Below, in pieces: positions 6,996-37,589 of a stretch of 64,000 nucleotides of DNA. The notes under the pieces were generated by a model that did no database searches, was not told the origin of the DNA, and saw only the letters and a list, made by a program, of their open reading frames with translations. The position numbers and the translations under genes are program-made. Numbering within the stretch: the first letter of the stretch is position 1; the number at the start of each line of letters is the position of its first letter. Origin of the DNA: Escherichia phage ECD7; sequence record NC_041936.1; one strand, given 5' to 3'.

Positions 6996-8210
6996 TTAAG
7001 CAGGATGCGTTTCACGAATGCGTAGAACTCGCTCTAACGTATCTCGGTCCAGTTTATGTAACTCTTTGGAATGATACATGAAACCATTGCGAGATTCCAT
7101 GCAAGTGCAATCACTATATTTTTCTTCCGCTGCCGCGATTGTCTCCAGATCTTTGGCGTACTTGCTGGTTGAATAAACTTCTCGATCACGCCACTCTAAC
7201 CCAGACTCATTGAATTTAACAATCTCGTCAAATACCCACCATCCAATGTAGATAAATGAAGTTTTGCGCCACGGGATCGGGTGTACGTAACGAAACATTT
7301 TAACAACTTCCATTGAACATTTTCGGCTTGTACTTGCTGCAACTTCTACTGTTTCATCTTCGATCTGTTGATATAGTTTAGCAACACACCAGAATTTGGC
7401 TGTGTCATCGTAAGTAGCACTCTCTTTGAACAGATGACCGTCTGGAGTGATAGAAAATCCTTCCAGTGCTTCGCCGACCTCACTACCGATCAGAGTCGGT
7501 GACATTTGCCCTTCGCGCTGCAAATACCAGTTATATTTGATCGTCAAATTAGGCATACCGCTAGAATCGCCTACAATGTCCTCTGACACAACATAATTAA
7601 GTGATATCTCATTACCTAGTGCCACGGTCTTTGATTCCACCACATCCTGATCTACGTTCATTGTTGCCAGCATTATTTTAGTCGATGCGCTAGCGGCTGA
7701 ATCTTCCGACTCGCCCCACACTTTTACAGTATACACGCCGTTTTTATCTGCTGTAAATTCTTGGATCGTAATATCCTTTTTTGTGTCTATAACGTCATCG
7801 CCCTTACTCCAACTATAATGTAGTTCATAGTTGTCTGCTGGAGTCTTCCCACCAGAAAAATTTACTGTTGCATGTAATTCTACGTCTTTTTGTGATGATA
7901 CGTAGAAATGCTGCGGTTCGGTGATATTTACGATTAATTCAGCTTCTTCCATGAGGAAAACTTCAGATTCTACTGATGTCATCGTATCGGTATCTTGTAC
8001 CGTTACTTTATAGCTACCCGCATTTTCACTTGTTGCGTCTGCTACAGTTAGCGTAGCTGTGCTATTTTCATGCGGTTGGTCGTCTTTTGTCCATGTATAT
8101 GTCAAATTGCTGGGTAATGGTTCGTCACCCGCTACAGTCGCCGTTAAGGTGAAACCATCTCCAGCAAGAAAACATCTTTTGTTAGATTGTATTGATACTG
8201 TGAAAGCCAT
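6996..8210 (-). CDS. hoc: highly immunogenic outer capsid protein Hoc
   Basis: 404 aa; Ig-like N-terminal repeats; C-terminus YVHPIPWRKTSFIYIGWWVFDEI...ESRNGFMYHSKEL matches recalled T4 Hoc capsid-binding domain. Confidence 0.85.
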   Translation of the reverse strand: MAFTVSIQSNKRCFLAGDGFTLTATVAGDEPLPSNLTYTWTKDDQPHENSTATLTVADATSENAGSYKVTVQDTDTMTSVESEVFLMEEAELIVNITEPQHFYVSSQKDVELHATVNFSGGKTPADNYELHYSWSKGDDVIDTKKDITIQEFTADKNGVYTVKVWGESEDSAASASTKIMLATMNVDQDVVESKTVALGNEISLNYVVSEDIVGDSSGMPNLTIKYNWYLQREGQMSPTLIGSEVGEALEGFSITPDGHLFKESATYDDTAKFWCVAKLYQQIEDETVEVAASTSRKCSMEVVKMFRYVHPIPWRKTSFIYIGWWVFDEIVKFNESGLEWRDREVYSTSKYAKDLETIAAAEEKYSDCTCMESRNGFMYHSKELHKLDRDTLERVLRIRETHPA

Positions 8211-10892: not shown

Positions 10893-11129
10893 ATGATTAG
10901 CTTTAAACGTTTTTTGGTTGAGGCCGCTATTGACGGTTTCATGCGTAAGATTTATTCTTGTAATACTATCGAGGGATTAAATGAACTTGAGGAATATTAT
11001 GAGAAGCGCAAGAAAGAAACAGAATTGAAACCTGCTGATGATATTTCGATCCGTGATGCCATCGCTGGACGCCGTAAGCAATTGGAAGCGGACAACGAGC
11101 CAGAAGAGGAGCCGGAAGAGGATTTTTAA
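10893..11129 (+). CDS. uvsW.1: UvsW.1-like small acidic protein
   Basis: 78 aa ORF directly after uvsW, as in T4. Confidence 0.6.
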   Translation: MISFKRFLVEAAIDGFMRKIYSCNTIEGLNELEEYYEKRKKETELKPADDISIRDAIAGRRKQLEADNEPEEEPEEDF

Positions 11130-11134
11130 GATAT

Positions 11135-11159
11135 AAAAAAGCCCCATCAATGATGGGGC
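11135..11159 (-). terminator. rho-independent terminator (minus strand) downstream of the uvsY cluster
   Basis: GCCCCATCA/TGATGGGGC hairpin with A-run on plus. Confidence 0.55.
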
Positions 11160-11192
11160 AAAATAAACCAATTAAAATCGGTTATCAACAAA

Positions 11193-11369
11193 TTACATTA
11201 ACAGCATTGTTTGCTCTACGAGTTGTTCTTGTTCTTCGCCGTTCGCATCTTCACTAATCGAACGTTCTGTTACTAGCTGTAAGCAGTAGCCAGTGTGAAC
11301 AACGCCGTTTTCTGTCTGGACTGCTAACGCATCCTCGACAGGTTGTTTACAACAAATACAGATTTTCAT
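11193..11369 (-). CDS. small Cys-rich protein (58 aa, MKICICCKQP...)
   Basis: ORF below the track cutoff, directly downstream of uvsY; position matches the T4 uvsY.-1/-2 small genes. Confidence 0.4.
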   Translation of the reverse strand: MKICICCKQPVEDALAVQTENGVVHTGYCLQLVTERSISEDANGEEQEQLVEQTMLLM

Positions 11370-11390
11370 AAAAATTCCTCCTGCATGTAT

Positions 11391-11798
11391 TTAGCGACCA
11401 GATTCCAGCATACGCAATTCTATAGCATTCTTGATCGCAAATCCACGAGATTTAACGATATCAAGTGCGCGACCAGCAAAATCCATTACCATCTGGTAAT
11501 ATGCAATTTTCGTATCAAGCGGTAAGATCTCGTCGTCTGCTGCCATGACAACTTTCAATTCTGATTTCTCATATTCAGCACGACACCAGTCATCACTACG
11601 GTTAGTGTAAAAGTCAAGACGATTTTTCATAGCCTTTTTCTTTTTAGCCTCAAGAGCAATCGTCTCTCTTTTCGCCTCGCTGTAAATCCTTAACCACTTT
11701 GAGTATACTACCGGATTATTCAGCGCCTCCCATTGCAACTTAGTCGCATCGATCTTCATGTCAGCTTCTAATTGTTCTTTCAAATCGTTTAGGTCCAT
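11391..11798 (-). CDS. uvsY: UvsY recombination mediator
   Basis: 135 aa; KLQWEALNNPVVYSKWL...KSRGFAIKN resembles recalled T4 UvsY. Confidence 0.9.
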   Translation of the reverse strand: MDLNDLKEQLEADMKIDATKLQWEALNNPVVYSKWLRIYSEAKRETIALEAKKKKAMKNRLDFYTNRSDDWCRAEYEKSELKVVMAADDEILPLDTKIAYYQMVMDFAGRALDIVKSRGFAIKNAIELRMLESGR

Positions 11799-29386: not shown

Positions 29387-29566
29387 TTACATAACAATCA
29401 CGCCAGCCGTTGAAAGTTGATGTTTCAACTGAGCATTTTCTGCTACCGTCAAATCAATGATTTCTTGTGACGCTGCAATCATATATCCATTGGTGATATT
29501 GTTTTGCATCAGTTCAATGGTTTCTTCGTTGTAGCGGATTTTAGCGATGATTTCGTTGAAGTTCAT
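29387..29566 (-). CDS. small hypothetical protein (59 aa)
   Basis: ATG with GGAGAATC RBS-like context; below the track cutoff. Confidence 0.35.
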   Translation of the reverse strand: MNFNEIIAKIRYNEETIELMQNNITNGYMIAASQEIIDLTVAENAQLKHQLSTAGVIVM

Positions 29567-29600
29567 GATTGATTCTCCTAGTTCGTTTCGGTATGTGTGT

Positions 29601-29630
29601 AGTATAGGGGATCTCCCGATCCCCTGTCAA
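29601..29630 (-). promoter_or_regulatory. sigma70-like early promoter with palindromic spacer
   Basis: minus TTGACA - GGGGATCGGGAGATCCCC - TATACT. Confidence 0.55.
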
Positions 29631-29639
29631 CAACTTTTT

Positions 29640-29951
29640 TTAAAGTTTTTCCATGATAACGGTCATAATTACATCTTCTGCGCGAGCGGTCAGATTATCA
29701 GCGTCAGCATGTGGGCGGTTGGTTGTTACAGAGATAACACCGTTGCGCACTGGTTTGATATTGATATCAAGATGATCCGCGAAACGTTCGCCAGTTACAG
29801 AATGAATTTTGGTGTTAAATTCTTTTGCCAGTGCCTTGCGAACTTCACGAATCAGGGTAGCGTTTTTCAGTTGGTTCTCCGCGCTCATGGTCTTCTGGGT
29901 GTTCATGGTTCCGTCGAAGTCAATCATTGGCAGCGTTACGATGTATTTCAT
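29640..29951 (-). CDS. small hypothetical protein (103 aa), paralog of 26347-26634
   Basis: shared AKEFNTK segment. Confidence 0.5.
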   Translation of the reverse strand: MKYIVTLPMIDFDGTMNTQKTMSAENQLKNATLIREVRKALAKEFNTKIHSVTGERFADHLDINIKPVRNGVISVTTNRPHADADNLTARAEDVIMTVIMEKL

Positions 29952-29996
29952 TTTTGATTCTCCGTTTAAGAAAGTGTGTTTCGTTTTGATGTGTGT

Positions 29997-30038: not shown

Positions 30039-30515
30039 TTATTTTTCTTGATGCTCGCGCTCGTACTTTTCGAAATAAAATTCTACTGGCTGGTCATGAA
30101 TTGACAGCAAGCCAAAGCGTTTAGCCGCTCGCAATCCCATATTGCGCTGAATGTACTTCTGGAAGTTCTCGCGTATACACTTACGCCAGTATTCTAAGCC
30201 CATACAGCTTTTATAAAGATTGCATTGTACACACGCCGGATTCATGTTATCAAGTATATCATGTTCCGGTTTATGCATTCCTACAACCTTATACTTCCAC
30301 GACCCATCATCATTACGGGCAATTCGTCCATTTTCATCATAGACTACCTTTGAGCGTCGCAATACTGGTTTGATATGGTCTGCGTGCCAGCGATCCCCTA
30401 GTTCCTCGCCACAATAGGCACAACGCCCACCGTATTTCATTTTCAGGATCTGGCGTTGCTCTTTCTTTGACAATTTTTTAGGTTTAGGGGCTTTCGCCCC
30501 TTCATTATCACACAT
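30039..30515 (-). CDS. HNH endonuclease (158 aa)
   Basis: CAYCGEELGDRWHADHIKP ... CVQCNLYK HNH zinc-finger nuclease motif; overlaps the 3' end of ligase by 8 nt. Confidence 0.65.
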   Translation of the reverse strand: MCDNEGAKAPKPKKLSKKEQRQILKMKYGGRCAYCGEELGDRWHADHIKPVLRRSKVVYDENGRIARNDDGSWKYKVVGMHKPEHDILDNMNPACVQCNLYKSCMGLEYWRKCIRENFQKYIQRNMGLRAAKRFGLLSIHDQPVEFYFEKYEREHQEK

Positions 30516-32010
30516 CGAATACCTCTTTTACTGTATTTGCAGTGGTCTTGTCGTAGCGAATACGTTTGATGATTGGGAGAAATAAAGAGAACTCCGGTTC
30601 ATCTTCTTTACGTGATTTGCTGCGGATATACCCGTTGCATGTCATCTCAATGACTTTTCCAATCAGGTTATGACGGTCAGTCCATAACATTTCTCGGTCG
30701 AGTTCATTTCGACGATCGAACGGAATTACACGTTCAGTACCATCATCACCTTTTTCGGTTGTAGTGTCGGTTAATCCCGATCCGGTGTTAGTCATCATTC
30801 GTCCGCACGCACTACGGACAGTAAAACCGCCTACCTTATTGGGGTCTTTACTATGCGGATATACATCAACAATTTCCGCGTCGAAGTCAATCACTTCTTT
30901 AAATTTAACCTGATCTTTACTACGGCGATCTTCAAATACACCATGTAAATTTTTAAGGATAATACCTTCTAAGCCCATGTTTACATAGCGATGATATACT
31001 TCGCGAGCTTCATCGATATTGTTAACTACAGTGTTTTCGATTATCTGAACACGAGGATCGTTAAGTTCTTCAACAATCTGTTTTAGCTCTTCGAATCGAT
31101 CTTTATATTGCTTCGTTGCTTTCTCGTTTCCGTAATACACATCACGGTCGATAACATCCCAGACAGTGTAAACAATACATTGGGCTTCTTCTTTTGGAAT
31201 AGTTCCTTTCAGTGATTTGTTGAGGATACCATTTCCGGTCTGACGATCTGCAACAACGGATTCTTTCACCGCTTCCGCTACTGGCGTTAATGGCATTTCC
31301 TCTTCTTCAAATATCCATGACAGAGTACCATCATAAACGCTCTCAACGAAGTTCTGCGCTGGTGTTTGCGAAAGGGTAGGCATATATACCAATTCGCCAT
31401 CTAGAACAATTCCACGGCCTCGTAGACTCTCTAAAACCGCAAACAAATCATCAAGCCCTTGATAGGTATTACCTGAACGGGTATAGATTGCTAATGTTTC
31501 CCCGTCAATATCAGCCATACCACGAGCGCCATCGCTTTTAAGTTGTGCATACGCCGGATATTTGATATTGGCAATGGTCTTATCAGAACATGACGATGCA
31601 AGGTGGCACGGCTGCTGGGGGATCAGTTTCTTCCATACCTTGTTTGCAGTGGTAGCGGAACAACCGCATTCCAGGTCACGATTCAGGACCATCATTGCAA
31701 CTTTAGCATCATCTTCTGACAAGCAAGTCAGAGTATCGGTAACTAGCTGTAATGCTGCATTACCAGTTACTTGACGTGTGGCAAGTTTATTTTTAAAGAC
31801 TTGTAATGCACCGGATAAAGACAATACAGACGAATAGCGCGATGGTTTATCGTATTTCTTTACGCCAAACGTAACCTGTTTGCAATATGCCAGATAAAAG
31901 CATTCTTTCAGTGTTTCATTGCTTGCAGATTCTTTCAGGATCTTTTCTTTCAGCGATGTTTTGTCTGTTGCTGCAAGCTGATTAATGATATTAAGAATTG
32001 ACATTTTCAC
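30508..32010 (-). CDS. 30: ATP-dependent DNA ligase gp30
   Basis: 500 aa; GLEGIILKN, KGTIPKEEAQC, FKEVIDFDAEIVDVYPH colinear with recalled T4 DNA ligase. Confidence 0.9.
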   Translation of the reverse strand: MKMSILNIINQLAATDKTSLKEKILKESASNETLKECFYLAYCKQVTFGVKKYDKPSRYSSVLSLSGALQVFKNKLATRQVTGNAALQLVTDTLTCLSEDDAKVAMMVLNRDLECGCSATTANKVWKKLIPQQPCHLASSCSDKTIANIKYPAYAQLKSDGARGMADIDGETLAIYTRSGNTYQGLDDLFAVLESLRGRGIVLDGELVYMPTLSQTPAQNFVESVYDGTLSWIFEEEEMPLTPVAEAVKESVVADRQTGNGILNKSLKGTIPKEEAQCIVYTVWDVIDRDVYYGNEKATKQYKDRFEELKQIVEELNDPRVQIIENTVVNNIDEAREVYHRYVNMGLEGIILKNLHGVFEDRRSKDQVKFKEVIDFDAEIVDVYPHSKDPNKVGGFTVRSACGRMMTNTGSGLTDTTTEKGDDGTERVIPFDRRNELDREMLWTDRHNLIGKVIEMTCNGYIRSKSRKEDEPEFSLFLPIIKRIRYDKTTANTVKEVFDV

Positions 32011-32470
32011 CTCGTTTTGTTAAACGTTCACGAATATCATTGAGGATACTACAAAATTCTGATTCGGTCAATATGGTCTTTAACGGATCAGTTCCACCTA
32101 TACTATGACGTAATTTCTTATTTCCGGTAGCGAGTAATGCTTTACAAAATTCTGGGTTATTCCGTGCCATCGTAACAAATGCCAGGTGCACCAGTCTGTA
32201 ATAATGCTCACTCATTCGATGAATCGGGCGACCCTGAAAATATAGCATGTGATTCTCAATCTTTTCAGTCCTTCCGGTTCTTTTTGCCTTGCCACCGTGC
32301 ATCAAAAAGATTTCTCTTTGCTTTTCTGGATTCTTGAATCTTAATCCCTGTAAAAATCCTTCTGTGCTGTTAATATCGCAACCAAATAGACGGAATGGTC
32401 TTTTATTGAAGTTGCTCAATTCACCCGATGGATAAGGTCCACCCGCATAGATATCAATTTCAGAAGTCAT
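31991..32470 (-). CDS. NADAR (YbiA/DUF1768)-like protein
   Basis: ELSNFNKRPFRLFGCDINSTEGFLQGLRF and ALLATGNKKL resemble NADAR-family signatures. Confidence 0.5.
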   Translation of the reverse strand: MTSEIDIYAGGPYPSGELSNFNKRPFRLFGCDINSTEGFLQGLRFKNPEKQREIFLMHGGKAKRTGRTEKIENHMLYFQGRPIHRMSEHYYRLVHLAFVTMARNNPEFCKALLATGNKKLRHSIGGTDPLKTILTESEFCSILNDIRERLTKRGENVNS

Positions 32471-32624
32471 TGAAACTAATCTCGCTAATCATAGAGAACG
32501 GATCATAATCGTCATGAGGAATATCGATAGTAATCGAATGAGGATTTACCCATACACCAAACTGGTCTTCTTCGGTGAATACTTCGGTATGGATTTCTTG
32601 GATGTTTACATTCATAGTTTTCAT
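32460..32624 (-). CDS. small hypothetical protein (54 aa)
   Basis: ORF below the track cutoff, overlapping the NADAR gene start. Confidence 0.3.
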   Translation of the reverse strand: MKTMNVNIQEIHTEVFTEEDQFGVWVNPHSITIDIPHDDYDPFSMISEISFNDF

Positions 32625-32706
32625 AATAAAAATTCCTTAATAATCAATAACTTACAAAATCATATAGCCAAAATATAGCGGGATTATTACCCGCCGTTTA
32701 AAATCA

Positions 32707-33030
32707 TTAACCGTAAACTACCACAATATTCTGTTTGTGCGTTACAGTCCATTTCAGGTCGATCTCTTCTTCCTTCTTAACGCCGTTAATAACGTCTGGA
32801 TGAGGAACTTTATTAAGTTTCCCATGAGGAAGCAATACAGTCTTGCCCAGCAATTCTTTATCAACGTTATCACCGATATCAATAATCTTACCGACTAAAG
32901 GAATCTCTCCCATAGTTCGTTTTTGCTCGATGATAATACCAAAATCGCTCTTTACTTCGGTCCCTGCGCTTTCCGCTTTAGCTTCAATGATCACATAGTC
33001 ACCAAGTGCTTTAGGAGTTTTAACGGTCAT
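32707..33030 (-). CDS. 31: co-chaperonin GroES analogue gp31
   Basis: 107 aa; GDYVIIEA...IIIEQKRTMGEIP...KVPHPDV pattern parallels recalled T4 gp31. Confidence 0.75.
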   Translation of the reverse strand: MTVKTPKALGDYVIIEAKAESAGTEVKSDFGIIIEQKRTMGEIPLVGKIIDIGDNVDKELLGKTVLLPHGKLNKVPHPDVINGVKKEEEIDLKWTVTHKQNIVVVYG

Positions 33031-33066
33031 AATTTTCTTACCTCTTCAATTCATCTCAATAGTAAA

Positions 33067-33684
33067 TTATTTATATTTCGCGACCTTTGGATTTCGCCGC
33101 AGACCGGAATGTATTTGCGCTATACAACAATAAGAAACATTAAACATATCAGCTATAATTTGCTTCTTAACTTTTCCTTTAAGCCGCATTATTTCTTCGA
33201 CTTGCGCATTTGTCAGTTTTGCCCGTGAGTGGTTTTCACCGACATTGTTATTGAGTCCAGTTCTAAATGAATGTCTCATATTTTCTAGTAAGGTTACTAT
33301 TTCTAGATTCCACACATAATTGCAGGTTTTTACACCATTGATGTGATTAACCTCAAGTCCGGTAACGTCTCCTAGAAATGCATTTGCTACAAGTCGATGT
33401 ATCTTTTCGGCTTTAACTGAGATTTTACCATTGTCTTTTTGTTTTGACAATGTTGAATAATAATATCCATATCGGTCTAAAATTGGTTTTATTATTTTAC
33501 CAGCCCGTTTTTGTTTTACGAGCTTAATATTACCGGGAGAAACTTCTCTATAAAATTCGATACTTCGGTCAATAGATCTCAATCTACCATAATTAGAGAT
33601 TTCATACCACGGATAACCTACAGCTTGTCTCCATTCTTCCGGCGCTGGTAATACGATATTATCATCTTTTGTTTCCATTGTCAA
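33067..33684 (-). CDS. HNH homing endonuclease (NUMOD4 + HNH_3 type)
   Basis: WYEISNYGRLRS and EVNHINGVK...NLE motifs; freestanding between 31 and cd. Confidence 0.65.
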   Translation of the reverse strand: MTMETKDDNIVLPAPEEWRQAVGYPWYEISNYGRLRSIDRSIEFYREVSPGNIKLVKQKRAGKIIKPILDRYGYYYSTLSKQKDNGKISVKAEKIHRLVANAFLGDVTGLEVNHINGVKTCNYVWNLEIVTLLENMRHSFRTGLNNNVGENHSRAKLTNAQVEEIMRLKGKVKKQIIADMFNVSYCCIAQIHSGLRRNPKVAKYK

Positions 33685-34007
33685 CTGCCACCGTAAATTT
33701 CAACGATCTGCGCTGGAGTCAGCCCGTCTACATTAATCAGACTATCAAGCCCAATACTACGGAAACCTTCAACTGCAATTTCATATACTGGCAAAGATGT
33801 TTCTGATTCTTTACGCGGTTTTTCAACATTAGGAACTAACCACTTTTCGTATGTTTCGAAAGGCATCAGTGCCGGATCTCGCGTAGCGATCATATCTCGG
33901 ACAGTACCATCTTTCTTAGTAAACTGCAAAGAGTGAGTACCGACAGAAAACATTTTCTTTAGTGCTTCACGAAGTGCGATATTATCAATTTGTTCAGTCA
34001 TTATCAA
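33681..34007 (-). CDS. hypothetical protein (108 aa)
   Basis: ORF coupled to the cd operon. Confidence 0.45.
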   Translation of the reverse strand: MIMTEQIDNIALREALKKMFSVGTHSLQFTKKDGTVRDMIATRDPALMPFETYEKWLVPNVEKPRKESETSLPVYEIAVEGFRSIGLDSLINVDGLTPAQIVEIYGGS

Positions 34008-34500
34008 TACCCTTCAAATCAGTCAATAATGCTTTTGGAATACGCGTAACCGTAATGTCGGCTTTATCCAAAATATCAGCCCAATCACACCCACCATTTC
34101 GATCATATGTGTCGCAATAGTATAGATGTTTAATTCCACTGTTTGCAATTGCTTTAGCGCAATCTGGACACGGTGAAGCAGTACACCACATACTAGCGCC
34201 TTCAATCGATACACCGCTACGGGCAGCAAACAAAATAGCATTTAATTCAGCATGGATCTCGTTTTTCTGTGACCATGCACTATGTTCTGGTCGTTTTTCT
34301 GGGATCATTTTGCCGTCATCATCCAGCCAACCGCTTTTATGTGCATGACAGCTACAATTTACTTGCCCTGCTGGAGTGCCGTTAAATCCAGTAGAAATGA
34401 TTCGCCCGTCTTTTTCGATCAGTGCGCCTACCTTCCACGAAACGCATTTAGAGTTCTTTGCGATTAGATAGGCGATCTGCATGTAAGTTTGTGACAACAT
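33994..34500 (-). CDS. cd: dCMP deaminase
   Basis: HAELNAI ... PCPDC zinc-binding deaminase motifs; 168 aa. Confidence 0.85.
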   Translation of the reverse strand: MLSQTYMQIAYLIAKNSKCVSWKVGALIEKDGRIISTGFNGTPAGQVNCSCHAHKSGWLDDDGKMIPEKRPEHSAWSQKNEIHAELNAILFAARSGVSIEGASMWCTASPCPDCAKAIANSGIKHLYYCDTYDRNGGCDWADILDKADITVTRIPKALLTDLKGIDND

Positions 34501-34521
34501 AATATAATCCTCACATATTAA

Positions 34522-34725
34522 TTAACCGTATACGCGAAAGTATTCTACCGATCCGTCACTATACTGTTTTACATTGAATGTATTCACACCATGATCATTG
34601 CTCATAATGACATATACACTGCGACGCTCATCACCAAACGGGTTAACTGGTGCGGGTTCAATTTCAACATTAAAACCACGTTTAGCAAGTGCTTCGCCTA
34701 ATTGCTTGAGTTTATCGGTAAACAT
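34522..34725 (-). CDS. small hypothetical protein (67 aa)
   Basis: ORF between pseT and cd. Confidence 0.4.
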   Translation of the reverse strand: MFTDKLKQLGEALAKRGFNVEIEPAPVNPFGDERRSVYVIMSNDHGVNTFNVKQYSDGSVEYFRVYG

Positions 34726-35624
34726 TAAAAGTCTCCGTAGTTAACCTGAAAACATTCTACACCAATTGAGCGGTACATGTCAACCACTTGATCACGGTCA
34801 TCTACTGCCAAAACAACATGATAACGCGGTGCAATTTCAGAGAAGAAAATCTCTTTCTTTACTTCATGATCAGGACGACGATCATTAGTTTCACGTTGAA
34901 AGTGATCACTAGGTTCGATACCTTGTTCACGCAACCATTGCAGAGTATCTTCTTCGCAAACATCCTCACGTCCTGAGCATGTAATGATACGATAACCATT
35001 ATCACGATACAGTTTAAGCATTTCGATCACTTGCGGACGCGGTTTATCTTCTTTGACCTTTGTCCAGTCAAACGGATGACGACCGCCCTTATCCGCTAAT
35101 GTCCCATCAATATCAAAGATCACTGCCTTTGGCAGCATGGTATTCGGTTTGTATACTTCTTGACCCATATATTCCTGCATCAGATAAAATTGGTTACGCA
35201 AATGAGATAGCGGAATTGCTTTCTCTCCGCGATAGAAATTACGTTTCTTTAGTGTCTCAAATGATTCATTGAACACTTGCTCAGTATACACCGCGTTAAA
35301 TTCTTTTGCAAGTTCTTTATAGAATACACGATGTTTTTCTTTCAGGTTAGTATCAGAGATAATGATACTTAATCCGCGTGATAGAGTCTCGCGAGCAATC
35401 ATTCTCTGAATAGACTCTACCAGCTTTTCTTTTTCCTTAGTATACTTGTATTTCAAAAGTGAGTCAACACCAAACAACATAAGACGAAGATCATCACGAT
35501 TCACATTACGATAATTACTAAACCGTTTACATGTTTCCATAGCCCATGTAGTTTTACCGGACCCAGAACAACCAACGGTTAAAATCACTTCACATTTCGG
35601 CATTATTTCTCCTTCGGTTTGCAC
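34725..35624 (-). CDS. pseT: polynucleotide 5'-kinase / 3'-phosphatase
   Basis: Walker A GCSGSGKTT; HAD-type DIDGTL; C-terminus VECFQV..GDF colinear with recalled T4 Pnk. Confidence 0.9.
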   Translation of the reverse strand: MQTEGEIMPKCEVILTVGCSGSGKTTWAMETCKRFSNYRNVNRDDLRLMLFGVDSLLKYKYTKEKEKLVESIQRMIARETLSRGLSIIISDTNLKEKHRVFYKELAKEFNAVYTEQVFNESFETLKKRNFYRGEKAIPLSHLRNQFYLMQEYMGQEVYKPNTMLPKAVIFDIDGTLADKGGRHPFDWTKVKEDKPRPQVIEMLKLYRDNGYRIITCSGREDVCEEDTLQWLREQGIEPSDHFQRETNDRRPDHEVKKEIFFSEIAPRYHVVLAVDDRDQVVDMYRSIGVECFQVNYGDF

Positions 35625-36055
35625 CGTTCCTCATTAAGTTCTTTGCGATAATAACACATGATCAACTTACTTTCAAGTGTATATCTCTTAATATCCGCAA
35701 GCCAGACTCTGAATTTTTGGGAGTCCTCCCACGACATAGAAACTCTAGGTTTACCGTCTATTGTATCCACTTTCAGGTCAATGTCAACTTTTTCTATTGG
35801 TGCTGGTAGTGGAGGATGTAATTTCGGTTCCTGTGAATAATGGTCCATTGTACACGAAGAAAGAGCAAATACAATAGGTACAGCGAAGACATGGATTATG
35901 GCGGTCTGAAAATTCTTATGTGCTTTCTTAAACATCCAGTGTATCACGAAAATTGAAAACACCATCAGGATAATAATGCTTGCACCTATCCCCAGATAAT
36001 CAACCAGATTAAAATTGCTTATCTGCTCTTGCGTAGGCAATATTTCTATGCTCAT
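35603..36055 (-). CDS. membrane protein (150 aa)
   Basis: N-terminal transmembrane helix. Confidence 0.45.
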   Translation of the reverse strand: MSIEILPTQEQISNFNLVDYLGIGASIIILMVFSIFVIHWMFKKAHKNFQTAIIHVFAVPIVFALSSCTMDHYSQEPKLHPPLPAPIEKVDIDLKVDTIDGKPRVSMSWEDSQKFRVWLADIKRYTLESKLIMCYYRKELNEERCKPKEK

Positions 36056-36375
36056 TTAGTAGCCTCCTTTAATTCTTCGGTAAACTCCTTAAATGAATCA
36101 TTAAGCTGTTTCTCTACCAACTTGGGTTTTTGTGCTACTACATAGCCTCGTGTAGCGTCTTTCATTGCTTTGTTTTGTTCTTCTGCAAACTTAGTTCTTA
36201 TTCCGTACATCTCCTTTTGTAGTGAGTCTACAACCTTCATCTTTTCATCTGTCTTTTTCTTATACTCTGTAAATTCCTGATTCAGTCGATCTACCTCCTT
36301 TTTATTTTCCCACCACATATTGCCACCTACCCCCAGCAACACAGATATGATAACAATGTATATCAGCTTTGACAT
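36052..36375 (-). CDS. membrane-anchored coiled-coil protein
   Basis: start set at MSKLIYIV; the track ORF N-terminus overlaps the terminator. Confidence 0.4.
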   Translation of the reverse strand: MSKLIYIVIISVLLGVGGNMWWENKKEVDRLNQEFTEYKKKTDEKMKVVDSLQKEMYGIRTKFAEEQNKAMKDATRGYVVAQKPKLVEKQLNDSFKEFTEELKEATK

Positions 36376-36389
36376 ATTACCCCCAACGA

Positions 36390-36413
36390 CAAAAGGCGGG
36401 GAACTAGCCCCGC
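36390..36413 (-). terminator. rho-independent terminator downstream of rnlA
   Basis: GCGGGG/CCCCGC hairpin with A-run on plus. Confidence 0.55.
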
Positions 36414-36419
36414 TTATTA

Positions 36420-37589
36420 TTACCAATCAATCTTATCAGCCGGAATCAGTTTCTTATAATTCCGTAGATAGTAAGTTTTCATTGAAGCCAGAATACGGTC
36501 ATAATCAAGACCATCAAATGCAATCATCAGACACATGAAAATATATGATTGTGCATCACCATGTTTACGTGATTCGATAGTCGCATTGGATGCATATGTC
36601 TTTCTGTCTTCTCCCGCGTGTGCGTTATAAAATTCTGTTGCTGTCGTAAAGGCATTGCGAAGAATGGACCTGAATGCTTCCTCGAATAGCTCGATTCGTT
36701 CCAGTGCTTCCGGTTCGCCTTCATATGCAGCACGCAAATCATCGGTTTCGCTTTCTACGACATAGTAGATCAGGTTATTAGGAAACATCGATGTGTTTTT
36801 AATGTTATGCACACCAATATACCATTCACTCTTCACCTTGAACATTTGACCGTCTTTAGTGCGTGCAACAATTCCTTCGATACCTTCTGCGGTCCGAACT
36901 TCATCAAGAATATTGCTAAAACGCGCTGAATCAACCTGTAACGCATTTACCAGATGAGGACGTAGGATTGCGTCAGAAAATAGCATTTGATGCGGTACGT
37001 ACTCTCCTGTGACGTTATGGCGTACATTCAGAAGTGTTAGCGACGGTTCAGAATATTCTACAACAATTCGGTTGCTGGGTGCTGTATATTCAAAGTTGAA
37101 AGTATAATCAGATCCAATATCGGCGATCTTAGCGCGTAGATCCGCATACTTCTCTGAATACAGAAGACCGTTTGCTCTCTCTGCCTGGCTTGAGTACAAG
37201 GCCGCTTTAGACTTCAACTGAACATAGCCGTTATCAATGTATGTGCTTACTAGACTACCGTCCATTTTGTCCATGACCATTTCCACATCTTCCGGCTTAA
37301 AGCGAGCGCGATCATTCTCACCTAAATTAAAAAACTTCTCCATAGGACGAGATGCAATGCGGACAGGTCGGTCTTTATCATCGATTTCAAACATGATCCC
37401 GCGACACTCTAACGCATCTGGTTTATTCCACATTTCCGGTTTGCTCAAGTACAGATAACTAAAAATGCGCATACGGGTTTGCATCGCCGTAATTTCATCT
37501 TTGTAATAGAACGTATCAGATCCGTCACATAGTGTCATCAGATTTTTGAACAATGCTAAAACTTTTTTGTTGTTTTCTTTTGTTGACAT
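36420..37589 (-). CDS. rnlA: RNA ligase 1
   Basis: adenylylation motif KMDGSLVS; LECRGIMFE...PVRIASRPMEKFFNL colinear with recalled T4 RnlA. Confidence 0.9.
   Translation of the reverse strand: MSTKENNKKVLALFKNLMTLCDGSDTFYYKDEITAMQTRMRIFSYLYLSKPEMWNKPDALECRGIMFEIDDKDRPVRIASRPMEKFFNLGENDRARFKPEDVEMVMDKMDGSLVSTYIDNGYVQLKSKAALYSSQAERANGLLYSEKYADLRAKIADIGSDYTFNFEYTAPSNRIVVEYSEPSLTLLNVRHNVTGEYVPHQMLFSDAILRPHLVNALQVDSARFSNILDEVRTAEGIEGIVARTKDGQMFKVKSEWYIGVHNIKNTSMFPNNLIYYVVESETDDLRAAYEGEPEALERIELFEEAFRSILRNAFTTATEFYNAHAGEDRKTYASNATIESRKHGDAQSYIFMCLMIAFDGLDYDRILASMKTYYLRNYKKLIPADKIDW

What the first reader, a model, noticed from the sequence alone, without database searches (positions are those of the whole stretch)
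33067..33684. HNH homing endonuclease (NUMOD4/HNH_3 type) between gene 31 and cd
A 205 aa ORF has WYEISNYGRL and EVNHINGVK motifs typical of phage homing endonucleases. It is inserted as a separate gene between conserved T4 genes, consistent with a mobile intronless homing element.
Basis: partly seen in the sequence, partly recalled or inferred. Interest (0 to 1): 0.4.

Follow-up and report, generated by a model that had tools for sequence, protein, structure and literature searches.

The report
Free-standing HNH homing endonuclease gene
This is an ordinary selfish "homing" nuclease gene, present in only some RB49-like coliphages, wedged between two conserved genes and always accompanied by a foreign-looking patch of the neighbouring essential gene 31, which probably marks its cutting target.

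Summary
A 203-aa ORF lies at 33067-33678 on the minus strand; the ATG at 33678 is a likelier start than the TTG at 33684. It passes the Pfam cut-offs for NUMOD4 and HNH_3. Its only relative in the PDB, by sequence and by predicted fold, is the nicking homing endonuclease I-HmuI.

The window is a Krischvirus (RB49-like). The gene lies between 31.1 and 31, not next to cd. It is a 620-bp insert (33076-33695), present in 10 of 59 related phage records and cleanly absent from the rest.

The insert sits just upstream of the last Lys-stop codons of 31.1. It therefore keeps the TATAAATA late-promoter-like box in front of gene 31.

All 16 endonuclease-carrying genomes examined also carry the same 250-bp tract (32815-33064; gene 31 codons 19-72 plus the spacer). 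This tract is about 15% diverged from endonuclease-free phages, mostly at synonymous sites. The flanks differ by about 2% and do not group carriers together.

This is the footprint expected of "intronless homing" with co-conversion. It points to a target inside gene 31. Cleavage and homing themselves are inferred, not shown.

Two carrier copies are frameshifted. Identical proteins are already deposited as "HNH homing endonuclease". Verdict: a new member of a known kind, of modest interest.

The parts
33067..33678 (-). Homing endonuclease CDS, 203 aa. It has an N-terminal NUMOD4 beta-sheet domain (about aa 14-92), an HNH_3 beta-beta-alpha-metal nuclease motif (aa 92-140; N111 H112 N124 N133) and a C-terminal three-helix HTH-like domain (aa 157-191).
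33076..33695 (.). The 620-bp insert, present in HEG+ phages and absent in HEG- phages. The junction has a 2-bp 'TA' ambiguity. The empty site reads TTATTTATA^AATTTCGACG on the + strand.
   Evidence: Alignment of 10 HEG+ and 10 HEG- loci.
33068..33075 (-). TATAAATA box, which matches the T4-type late-promoter consensus. It is formed by the Tyr-Lys-stop codons that end 31.1 in empty-site phages and end the endonuclease gene here. It lies 37 nt upstream of the gene 31 ATG and is kept intact by the insertion.
   Evidence: it is the only such box on the minus strand in 30-37 kb. Promoter function is inferred from the consensus only.
33681..34001 (-). Gene 31.1 (WYL_2 / SH3 beta-barrel). Its C-terminus is changed from ...VEIYK* to ...VEIYGGS* by the insert. 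Its TGA stop lies 2 nt before the endonuclease ATG.
32815..33064 (.). HEG-linked divergent ('foreign') tract. It covers gene 31 codons about 19-72 (32815-32974) and the 31.1/31 spacer (33037-33064, including a 5-nt deletion), separated by 62 conserved bp. The tract has about 36 fixed or near-fixed substitutions against HEG- phages. It is the proposed co-conversion tract and the likely location of the target site.
32707..33030 (-). Gene 31 (GroES-like co-chaperonin for head assembly), the downstream neighbour and proposed target gene.
   Evidence: T4 gp31 structure 1G31, E = 1.1e-11.
33994..34500 (-). It is not adjacent to the insert.

Best explanation
This is a free-standing, I-HmuI-like HNH homing endonuclease gene (HEG) resident in a Krischvirus (RB49-like T4-type) genome.

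Shown:
- The protein has the NUMOD4 + HNH_3 + C-terminal helix-turn-helix architecture, with the catalytic His and Asn residues intact.
- The gene is a 620-bp insert with a clean presence/absence polymorphism.
- The insert sits between the Tyr codon and the Lys-stop of gene 31.1. The TATAAATA box in front of essential gene 31 is therefore preserved, and 31.1 merely gains a GGS tail.
- Every carrier examined also has an identical 250-bp tract in the 5' half of gene 31 and the spacer. This tract is about 15% diverged from non-carriers, mostly at synonymous sites.
- Sequence outside the tract is about 2% diverged and shows no carrier/non-carrier structure.

Inferred:
- The gene has no promoter of its own. 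It is read from the cd-31.1 transcript and translated at a low level by coupling to the 31.1 stop.
- In a mixed infection the enzyme nicks (as I-HmuI, MobA and MobE do) or cuts the endonuclease-free allele at a site inside gene 31, roughly 55-250 bp from the insertion point.
- Recombination-dependent repair from the carrier genome then copies the resistant gene 31 patch and the endonuclease gene together. This is 'intronless homing' with co-conversion and marker exclusion.
- The patch itself was imported from an unsampled, more distant phage when the element first arrived.
For: Domains: Pfam NUMOD4 2.2e-11 and HNH_3 8e-9, both above gathering score. PHROG 59 HNH endonuclease 1.6e-35.

Fold and active site:
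- The only PDB sequence hit is I-HmuI 1U3E.
- The AlphaFold model (pLDDT 78) has 1U3E as its only significant Foldseek hit (E = 6.8e-7, 195 aligned columns).
- N111, H112, N124 and N133 are invariant in the subfamily alignment.

Polymorphism and linkage:
- 10 records carry the gene and 49 do not.
- The junction is exact and identical in all 20 aligned loci.
- Between-group divergence is 0.156 and 0.097 in the two 200-bp bins covering 32755-33145. Elsewhere it is about 0.02, with within-group divergence 0.01-0.03.
- The tract has 27 synonymous and 5 non-synonymous codon differences.
- Six further carrier genomes from public assemblies have the full tract with 0 differences, giving 16 of 16 linkage.
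- In both flanks the nearest neighbour of many carriers is a non-carrier; for the window it is Brandy.

Selection: phiS differs by about 18 synonymous and 3 non-synonymous changes, which indicates purifying selection.

Exclusions: no intron and no terminal repeats.

Mechanistic precedent (PMC2988022):
- Free-standing T4 endonucleases cleave hundreds of bp or more from their insertion site.
- They depend on co-conversion for inheritance.
- They are often promoter-less cassettes with coupled or overlapping starts.
- The HNH members MobA, MobE and I-HmuI nick one strand.
Against: - No cleavage, nicking or inheritance data exist for this protein, and the target site is only bracketed, not mapped.
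- The perfect linkage could in principle reflect a single import event followed by ordinary homologous recombination, which is very frequent in T4-type phages.
- All carriers share the same outer tract boundary (32815). That fits one ancestral event better than many independent homing events with variable tracts. However, DNA left of 32815 is identical in all phages, so longer conversion tracts would be invisible.
- Diversity within the tract and the HEG among carriers is only slightly lower than in the flanks, so a recent sweep is not demonstrated.
- The residue before the catalytic His is Asn rather than the Asp of I-HmuI. It is, however, invariant in this subfamily.
- The Shine-Dalgarno match (GGTGG) is weak.
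- Two of the carrier copies are frameshifted.
- No donor lineage for the tract was found.
Confidence: 0.75

Rival explanations
1. Relic or passenger. The gene is a homing-endonuclease homologue that arrived once with its 250-bp flank by recombination from a distant phage. It is no longer, or only weakly, active. Its patchy distribution is produced by ordinary high-frequency homologous recombination among co-infecting Krischviruses, not by endonuclease-driven homing.
For: - All carriers share a single tract boundary at 32815.
- Two copies are frameshifted: FL20 at codon 106 and G37-3 at codon 118.
- Non-carrier recombinants hold part of the tract: JK32 to 32862 and UPWr_E1 to 32907. This shows that plain crossovers occur inside it.
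- Within-carrier diversity is not markedly reduced.
Against: - The ORF is under strong purifying selection, with about 18 synonymous and 3 non-synonymous changes in phiS.
- The catalytic motif is intact and invariant.
- No carrier has lost any part of the tract (0 of 16), although reciprocal crossover products should exist if the linkage were neutral.
- The exact protein is widespread, in 67 blocks of public assemblies.
Confidence: 0.15
2. This is not a selfish homing element. It is a cassette gene moved by another route, such as the PeSL promoter/stem-loop shuffling described for RB49 and phi1 or a 'moron'-type insertion. It encodes a nuclease or DNA-binding protein that serves the phage, for example by excluding competitors, attacking host DNA or regulating genes.
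For: - PeSL-mediated cassette shuffling is documented in exactly this phage group (PMC2839356).
- HNH_3/NUMOD4 proteins have a DNA-binding HTH that could act as a regulator.
- A sigma-70-like TTGACA-17-TAATAT lies at the 5' junction.
Against: - No PeSL anatomy is present. There is no intergenic early promoter plus G/C stem-loop on either side. The gene abuts 31.1 with a 2-nt gap and is followed by a 36-nt spacer without a hairpin.
- The locus is in a conserved core block, not a hyperplastic ORFan region.
- The junction promoter-like site would start transcription inside the ORF.
- The linked foreign tract in the neighbouring gene is what homing with co-conversion predicts. Cassette shuffling does not predict it.
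- Competitor exclusion is itself part of the homing model.
Confidence: 0.07
3. The endonuclease is encoded in an intron or intein, or is a transposable element.
For: Many NUMOD4/HNH_3 enzymes, including I-HmuI, I-HmuII and I-TevIII, are encoded in group I introns (PMC2988022).
Against: - No Rfam family, including group I introns, matches 32000-35000 even at E <= 1.
- The insert lies between two separately translated ORFs.
- There are no terminal inverted or direct repeats beyond chance.
- The empty site shows a simple 620-bp indel.
Confidence: 0.01

Closest known systems
I-HmuI (Bacillus phage SPO1 intron-encoded HNH nicking endonuclease; PDB 1U3E)
   Same: It is the only solved structure matched by sequence (E = 0.0015) and by predicted fold (Foldseek E = 6.8e-7 over 195 columns). 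The order of parts is the same: N-terminal beta-sheet DNA-binding region (NUMOD4), HNH beta-beta-alpha-metal motif, then helices and a C-terminal HTH. The His/Asn/Asn positions are conserved.
   Different: Identity is only about 21%. This gene is free-standing rather than intron-encoded. Asn replaces Asp before the catalytic His. The proposed target is in a neighbouring gene at a distance rather than at the insertion site. Nicking has not been tested.
T4 free-standing HNH endonucleases MobA-MobE, especially MobE between nrdA and nrdB
   Same: The lifestyle matches: a promoter-less HNH gene in an intergenic position of a T4-type core gene block. Its start abuts the upstream stop codon, the downstream essential gene keeps its own promoter, and the target is expected in the adjacent conserved gene. 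[quoted passage not shown]
   Different: There is no detectable sequence similarity to T4 MobE (BLASTP E = 0.94). The locus differs: T4 has 31-31.1-31.2-cd with no endonuclease there. The DNA-binding domains differ (NUMOD4/HTH).
T4 SegF and SegG 'intronless homing' systems (GIY-YIG)
   Same: The population-genetic footprint matches. The cleavage site lies in a neighbouring conserved gene hundreds of bp from the endonuclease gene. Co-conversion of the intervening sequence is obligatory, which leads to marker exclusion and localized high divergence next to the endonuclease gene (PMC2988022).
   Different: The nuclease family differs (GIY-YIG double-strand cutters versus HNH). Here co-conversion is inferred from natural variation only.
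Identical or near-identical deposited proteins in Krischvirus genomes (e.g. E26 QHB48812.1 and ELT4 UNY41536.1 'HNH homing endonuclease'; KFS-EC, PHB13, G2494, pEJ01, phiS)
   Same: Identity is 98-100% and the 31.1-HEG-31 context is the same.
   Different: None at the sequence level. Those records carry annotation only. No paper found here describes the locus, the linked gene 31 tract or any activity.

Membership tests
Pfam HNH_3 (PF13392) / NUMOD4 (PF07463) endonucleases | Scores above the curated gathering thresholds for both domains | tested here: met
   NUMOD4 scores 44.2 bits against 23.4. HNH_3 scores 35.4 bits against 24.8.
HNH (beta-beta-alpha-metal) nucleases | Conserved general-base His and the Asn/Asn(His) metal-site residues | tested here: met
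   H112, N124 and N133 align to the I-HmuI H/N/N positions and are invariant in 11 subfamily members. The residue before His is Asn, not Asp. The residue roles are recalled from the I-HmuI literature and were not tested.
I-HmuI-like architecture | An extended multi-domain fold: N-terminal beta-sheet domain, HNH motif and C-terminal HTH | tested here: met
   The model has pLDDT 78 and the matching secondary-structure order. 1U3E is the only hit with E < 0.001, over 195 columns with TM 0.44-0.50. The high rmsd reflects flexible domains.
Homing endonuclease gene (functional definition) | Presence/absence polymorphism at one fixed site in otherwise collinear relatives | tested here: met
   10 of 59 records carry the gene. 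The junction is identical and the empty site is clean. The context is the same in 67 assembly blocks.
Homing endonuclease gene (functional definition) | Flanking-marker co-conversion linked to the element | tested here: met
   A 250-bp tract about 15% diverged is in complete linkage with the gene (16 of 16), and the flanks are unstructured. This is a footprint; the process itself is inferred.
Homing endonuclease gene (functional definition) | Site-specific nicking or cleavage of the element-free allele and resistance of the carrier allele | not testable with these tools
   This needs the protein and DNA substrates.
Homing endonuclease gene (functional definition) | Super-Mendelian inheritance in mixed infections | not testable with these tools
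   This needs phage crosses.
T4 Mob family (MobE orthologue) | Sequence homology to T4 MobE | tested here: not met
   BLASTP E = 0.94. The resemblance is in lifestyle only.
Group I intron-encoded endonuclease | An enclosing group I intron | tested here: not met
   No Rfam hit at E <= 1 in 32000-35000.
PeSL cassette (RB49/phi1 modular shuffling) | Flanking intergenic early promoter plus G/C-rich stem-loop motifs | tested here: not met
   No hairpin or intergenic space at either junction. The only terminator-like hairpin, at 32677-32695, is downstream of gene 31; it is also annotated at the same position in the one empty-site phage whose record lists terminators (G2248).

The most novel reading that the evidence does not exclude
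The endonuclease may not only be selfish. It may act as a drive for a functionally distinct allele of the essential co-chaperonin gp31. The obligatorily co-converted patch changes five gp31 residues (D29/F30, D54/N55 and L72, versus S/M, E/T and M). Two of these lie immediately next to the 'GIII' tripeptide, which aligns with the GroEL-binding mobile-loop 'GLII' of T4 gp31. Homing would then spread a variant with altered GroEL or host compatibility and exclude the competitor's gene 31 in mixed infections.
Probability: 0.1. Interest if true: 0.5.

Novelty: new member of a known kind. Interest (0 to 1): 0.27.

Why it matters
The finding adds a clean natural example of intronless homing by an I-HmuI-type HNH enzyme in the RB49 group. 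T4 has no endonuclease at this locus (31.1/31). It also yields a concrete, testable prediction of the target: gene 31, within about 250 bp of the insert. The insert is placed so that both the upstream ORF and the TATAAATA box in front of the downstream essential gene are preserved.

For annotation, it explains a local spike of divergence inside gene 31 that could otherwise be read as selection or assembly error. For the wider field it is confirmatory rather than surprising, because free-standing HNH endonucleases and their co-conversion footprints are well established in T4-type phages.

Tried and rejected
1. Donor of the foreign gene 31 tract. Sensitive blastn of 32800-33066 against 50,697 phage records found only Krischvirus alleles. 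A tract-specific 22-mer gave no exact match in IMG/VR or the JGI metagenome contigs. The donor remains unknown.

2. Closer relatives of the protein. The 5.8-billion-protein search gave only its own 98% cluster and then relatives at 44% identity or less. IMG/VR gave one 32% relative. tblastn against phages gave a next-best hit of 39%. No source lineage was identified.

3. RNA hairpin occluding the start codon, as in some T4 endonuclease genes. The fold of 33640-33740 is no better than shuffles (z = 0.19). Rejected.

4. Intron or ribozyme. No Rfam hit. Rejected.

5. Transposon-like ends or target-site duplication. Only short chance repeats were found. The apparent similarity of the two C-termini (VAKYK* and VEIYK*) is explained by the insert reusing the old Tyr-Lys-stop region. 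Rejected.

6. Paralogues in the window. tblastn of the protein against the 64-kb window found none.

7. Orthology to T4 MobE. None.

8. A recent selective sweep. Within-carrier diversity in the tract and the gene is only marginally below the flanks, so this is not claimed.

9. Literature. No paper found describes this locus.

Full report
**1. Observation**

The window has an ORF at 33067-33684 on the minus strand, 205 aa from a mechanical TTG start. Reading the sequence, the upstream gene ends with TGA at 33683-33681. An ATG follows two bases later at 33678, giving a 203-aa protein. This is the 612-nt CDS annotated in every related GenBank record.

**2. What the protein is**

- Pfam finds NUMOD4 (aa 14-77, 44.2 bits against a cut-off of 23.4) and HNH_3 (aa 92-135, 35.4 bits against 24.8).
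- PHROGs places it in phrog_59 'HNH endonuclease' at 1.6e-35.
- The only solved structure matched by sequence is the SPO1 intron endonuclease I-HmuI (1U3E, E = 0.0015).
- An AlphaFold model built on an 11-sequence alignment has mean pLDDT 78 and pTM 0.63. It shows an N-terminal all-beta region, a beta-beta-alpha HNH core and three C-terminal helices.
- Foldseek against the PDB returns 1U3E as the only hit below E = 0.001 (6.8e-7, 195 aligned columns, TM 0.44-0.50). Weak hits to helix-turn-helix regulators cover the C-terminus.
- In the subfamily alignment, the motif VNHINGxK..N...NLE..T..EN is invariant (N111, H112, N114, N120, N124, N133).
- H112, N124 and N133 align with the His/Asn/Asn of I-HmuI. 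The residue before the His is Asn here and throughout the subfamily, where I-HmuI has Asp.
- There is no detectable similarity to T4 MobE.

**3. Genomic setting**

The window is a Krischvirus (RB49-like, Straboviridae). A 25-kb stretch is 96% identical to PHB13, ELT4, RB49 and others.

The order on the minus strand is pseT - cd.2 - cd (33994-34500) - 31.1 (WYL_2; 33681-34001) - endonuclease - 31 (32707-33030; homologous to T4 gp31, PDB 1G31, E = 1.1e-11) - two small ORFs - 30.3 - DNA ligase. The gene therefore sits between 31.1 and 31, one gene away from cd. T4 itself has 31 - 31.1 - 31.2 - cd with no endonuclease.

**4. Presence/absence polymorphism**

Megablast of 32400-34600 found 59 phage records. 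Ten of them (nine distinct phages) cover 100% of the query and carry the gene. The other 49 match in two pieces covering 71% and lack it.

I aligned the window plus nine carriers with ten non-carriers over about 8 kb. The empty site reads TTATTTATA^AATTTCGACG on the + strand. Carriers have 620 extra bp (33076-33695) at that point, with a 2-bp 'TA' ambiguity.

In gene orientation, the non-carrier 31.1 ends ...GTC GAA ATT TAT AAA TAA (VEIYK*). In carriers, 31.1 ends ...ATT TAC GGT GGC AGT TGA (VEIYGGS*), and the endonuclease ends ...GCG AAA TAT AAA TAA. So the element sits just upstream of the old Lys-stop and reuses it.

That TAT AAA TA sequence is a perfect TATAAATA, the T4-type late-promoter consensus (established knowledge). 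It lies 37 nt upstream of the gene 31 ATG and is the only such box on the minus strand between 30 and 37 kb. The insertion therefore neither destroys 31.1 nor displaces this putative promoter of an essential gene.

This resembles what is described for T4 free-standing endonucleases. Those are often promoter-less cassettes whose starts abut or overlap the upstream stop, with downstream promoters retained (PMC2988022).

Further checks:
- I found no RNA hairpin over the start region (z = 0.19).
- No Rfam family, including group I introns, matches.
- There are no terminal repeats.
- PeSL-type flanking promoter/stem-loop motifs, known from RB49 and phi1, are absent (PMC2839356).

**5. A linked foreign patch in gene 31**

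Sliding-window divergence shows between-group divergence of 0.156 for 32755-32954 and 0.097 for 32955-33145. Within-group values there are 0.01-0.03. Everywhere else in the 8 kb, between-group equals within-group at about 0.02.

Site by site, the differences run from 32815 to 33064 in two blocks:
- gene 31 codons about 19-72 (32815-32974);
- the 31.1/31 spacer (33037-33064, with a 5-nt deletion).

These blocks are separated by a conserved 62 bp covering the ribosome-binding site and the first codons. In the 115 bp to the left (32700-32814) there are no carrier/non-carrier differences and only a handful of singleton SNPs. To the right of the insert, in 31.1, there is no clear excess.

Against RB49, the gene 31 part has 27 synonymous and 5 non-synonymous codon differences. 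It is therefore an allele from a substantially diverged lineage, not in-situ mutation.

Six further carrier genomes recovered from public assemblies all have the whole tract with zero differences. Linkage is 16 of 16.

Outside the tract, carriers are not a clade. The window's nearest neighbour on both sides is the non-carrier Brandy, and most other carriers also have non-carriers among their closest relatives.

Two non-carriers are mosaics with carrier-type sequence only at the far end of the tract: JK32 for 32815-32862 and UPWr_E1 for 32815-32907. This shows that crossovers happen inside the tract. The reciprocal class, a carrier with a non-carrier-type far end, was not seen.

No donor for the tract was found in the phage collection, IMG/VR or the JGI metagenomes.

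**6. State of the gene across carriers**

phiS, the most diverged intact copy, has about 18 synonymous and 3 non-synonymous differences. By my own rough estimate this puts dN/dS near 0.05, which implies selection for an intact protein.

FL20 has a +1 frameshift at codon 106, before the catalytic His. G37-3 has a -1 frameshift at codon 118 and another at codon 202. Both are annotated as split ORFs. Sequencing error cannot be excluded. Occasional decay is nevertheless what the homing-endonuclease life cycle predicts.

**7. Mechanism**

*Shown:* the domain architecture, the intact motif, the insert and its exact junction, the preserved TATAAATA box, the linked foreign tract, and the lack of carrier/non-carrier structure in the flanks.

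*Inferred from precedent:*
- The review of T4 mobile elements (PMC2988022) states that free-standing endonucleases cleave hundreds to thousands of bp from their own gene. Resection and repair must then run through to the gene, producing co-conversion. It also states that the HNH members MobA, MobE and I-HmuI/II nick one strand.
- I therefore propose that in mixed infection the enzyme nicks or cuts the non-carrier gene 31 within the region corresponding to 32815-32975.
- The carrier allele is resistant because of its many substitutions.
- Recombination-dependent repair copies the patch and the gene together.

Expression by read-through from cd-31.1 and translational coupling is also inferred. 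It rests on the 2-nt gap after TGA and a weak GGTGG 9 nt upstream of the ATG.

**8. Rivals**

- A relic spread only by ordinary recombination is the main alternative. The single shared tract boundary and the two frameshifted copies favour it. Purifying selection and the absence of carriers with truncated tracts argue against it.
- Cassette shuffling or a domesticated function, and intron or transposon origins, are not supported.

**9. Comparison with the known, and novelty**

The protein is a member of the NUMOD4/HNH_3, I-HmuI-like class. In lifestyle it matches the T4 Mob/Seg free-standing endonucleases, but it is not an orthologue of MobE.

Identical proteins are already in GenBank labelled 'HNH homing endonuclease' (E26, ELT4) or 'hypothetical protein'. 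I found no paper on this locus.

It is a new, uncharacterized member of a well-known kind. The gene 31 footprint is a tidy but expected signature. Interest is modest.

Noticed in passing
window 30039-30515 (-): A second, unrelated HNH-type ORF (158 aa, with CxxC...HxDH...CxxCN motifs). It lies immediately downstream of the DNA ligase gene and overlaps its end. It is annotated as 'HNH endonuclease' in RB49 (RB49p212). It is present in all carrier and non-carrier loci examined, so it is not polymorphic like the finding.
   Followed up: partly
window 29400-29960: A hypervariable stretch. Pairwise divergence is 0.14-0.39 even within groups, and different small-ORF sets are annotated in different Krischviruses. 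It looks like one of the ORFan/PeSL 'hyperplastic' regions described for RB49 and phi1.
   Followed up: no
window 33684-33656 (-): A sigma-70-like promoter match, TTGACA-17-TAATAT (10 of 12, with TG), lies exactly at the 5' junction of the insert. The TTGACA overlaps the 31.1 stop. It would start transcription inside the endonuclease ORF, near codon 10. It may be chance: 13 sites were found against 7.1 +/- 2.1 expected in the region.
   Followed up: no
window 32941-32946 (gp31 codons 29-30) and the other gp31 changes at codons 54, 55 and 72: The endonuclease-linked gene 31 allele changes five amino acids. D29/F30 (S/M in non-carriers) lie directly before 'GIII', which aligns with 'GLII' of T4 gp31. 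From memory, that is the GroEL-binding mobile loop. A functional consequence is possible.
   Followed up: partly
L009 (phage ELT4) 4281-4585, equivalent to window 33681-34001: In this carrier phage the neighbouring gene 31.1 is split and truncated (annotated as two CDS; the translation stops after about 41 aa). This suggests 31.1 is dispensable, or that the record contains a sequencing error.
   Followed up: no
L007 (phage G37-3), equivalent to window 33073: A single-base deletion in G37-3 alters the TATAAATA box in front of gene 31, in addition to the frameshift in its endonuclease gene. It is either a sequencing artefact or decay of the locus.
   Followed up: no
window 32677-32695 (-): A terminator-like G/C hairpin followed by a T-run lies just downstream of gene 31. 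It is also annotated as a terminator in G2494, G37-3 and G2248. The HEG-31 pair is therefore probably the end of a transcription unit.
   Followed up: no
window about 36052-36426 (pseT.3 / spanin-like ORF) and related loci: A length polymorphism of the ORF downstream of pseT.2 (88 versus 107 aa products, with different intergenic length) varies among Krischviruses independently of the endonuclease.
   Followed up: no
L023 (T4) 7517-7580 (-): The T4 31.1/31 spacer lacks a TATAAATA box. It has a TTTGCTTCA (MotA-box-like) sequence at the end of 31.1. Gene 31 promoter arrangements therefore appear to differ between T4 and the RB49 group.
   Followed up: no
Other Krischvirus genomes (e.g. TB34 98215-98748, Cognac 11068-11601, KMB43, Whisky): A paralogous NUMOD4/HNH_3 endonuclease, about 36% identical to this one, sits at a different locus in several non-carrier Krischviruses. 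This is a second, independently polymorphic homing endonuclease of the same family.
   Followed up: no
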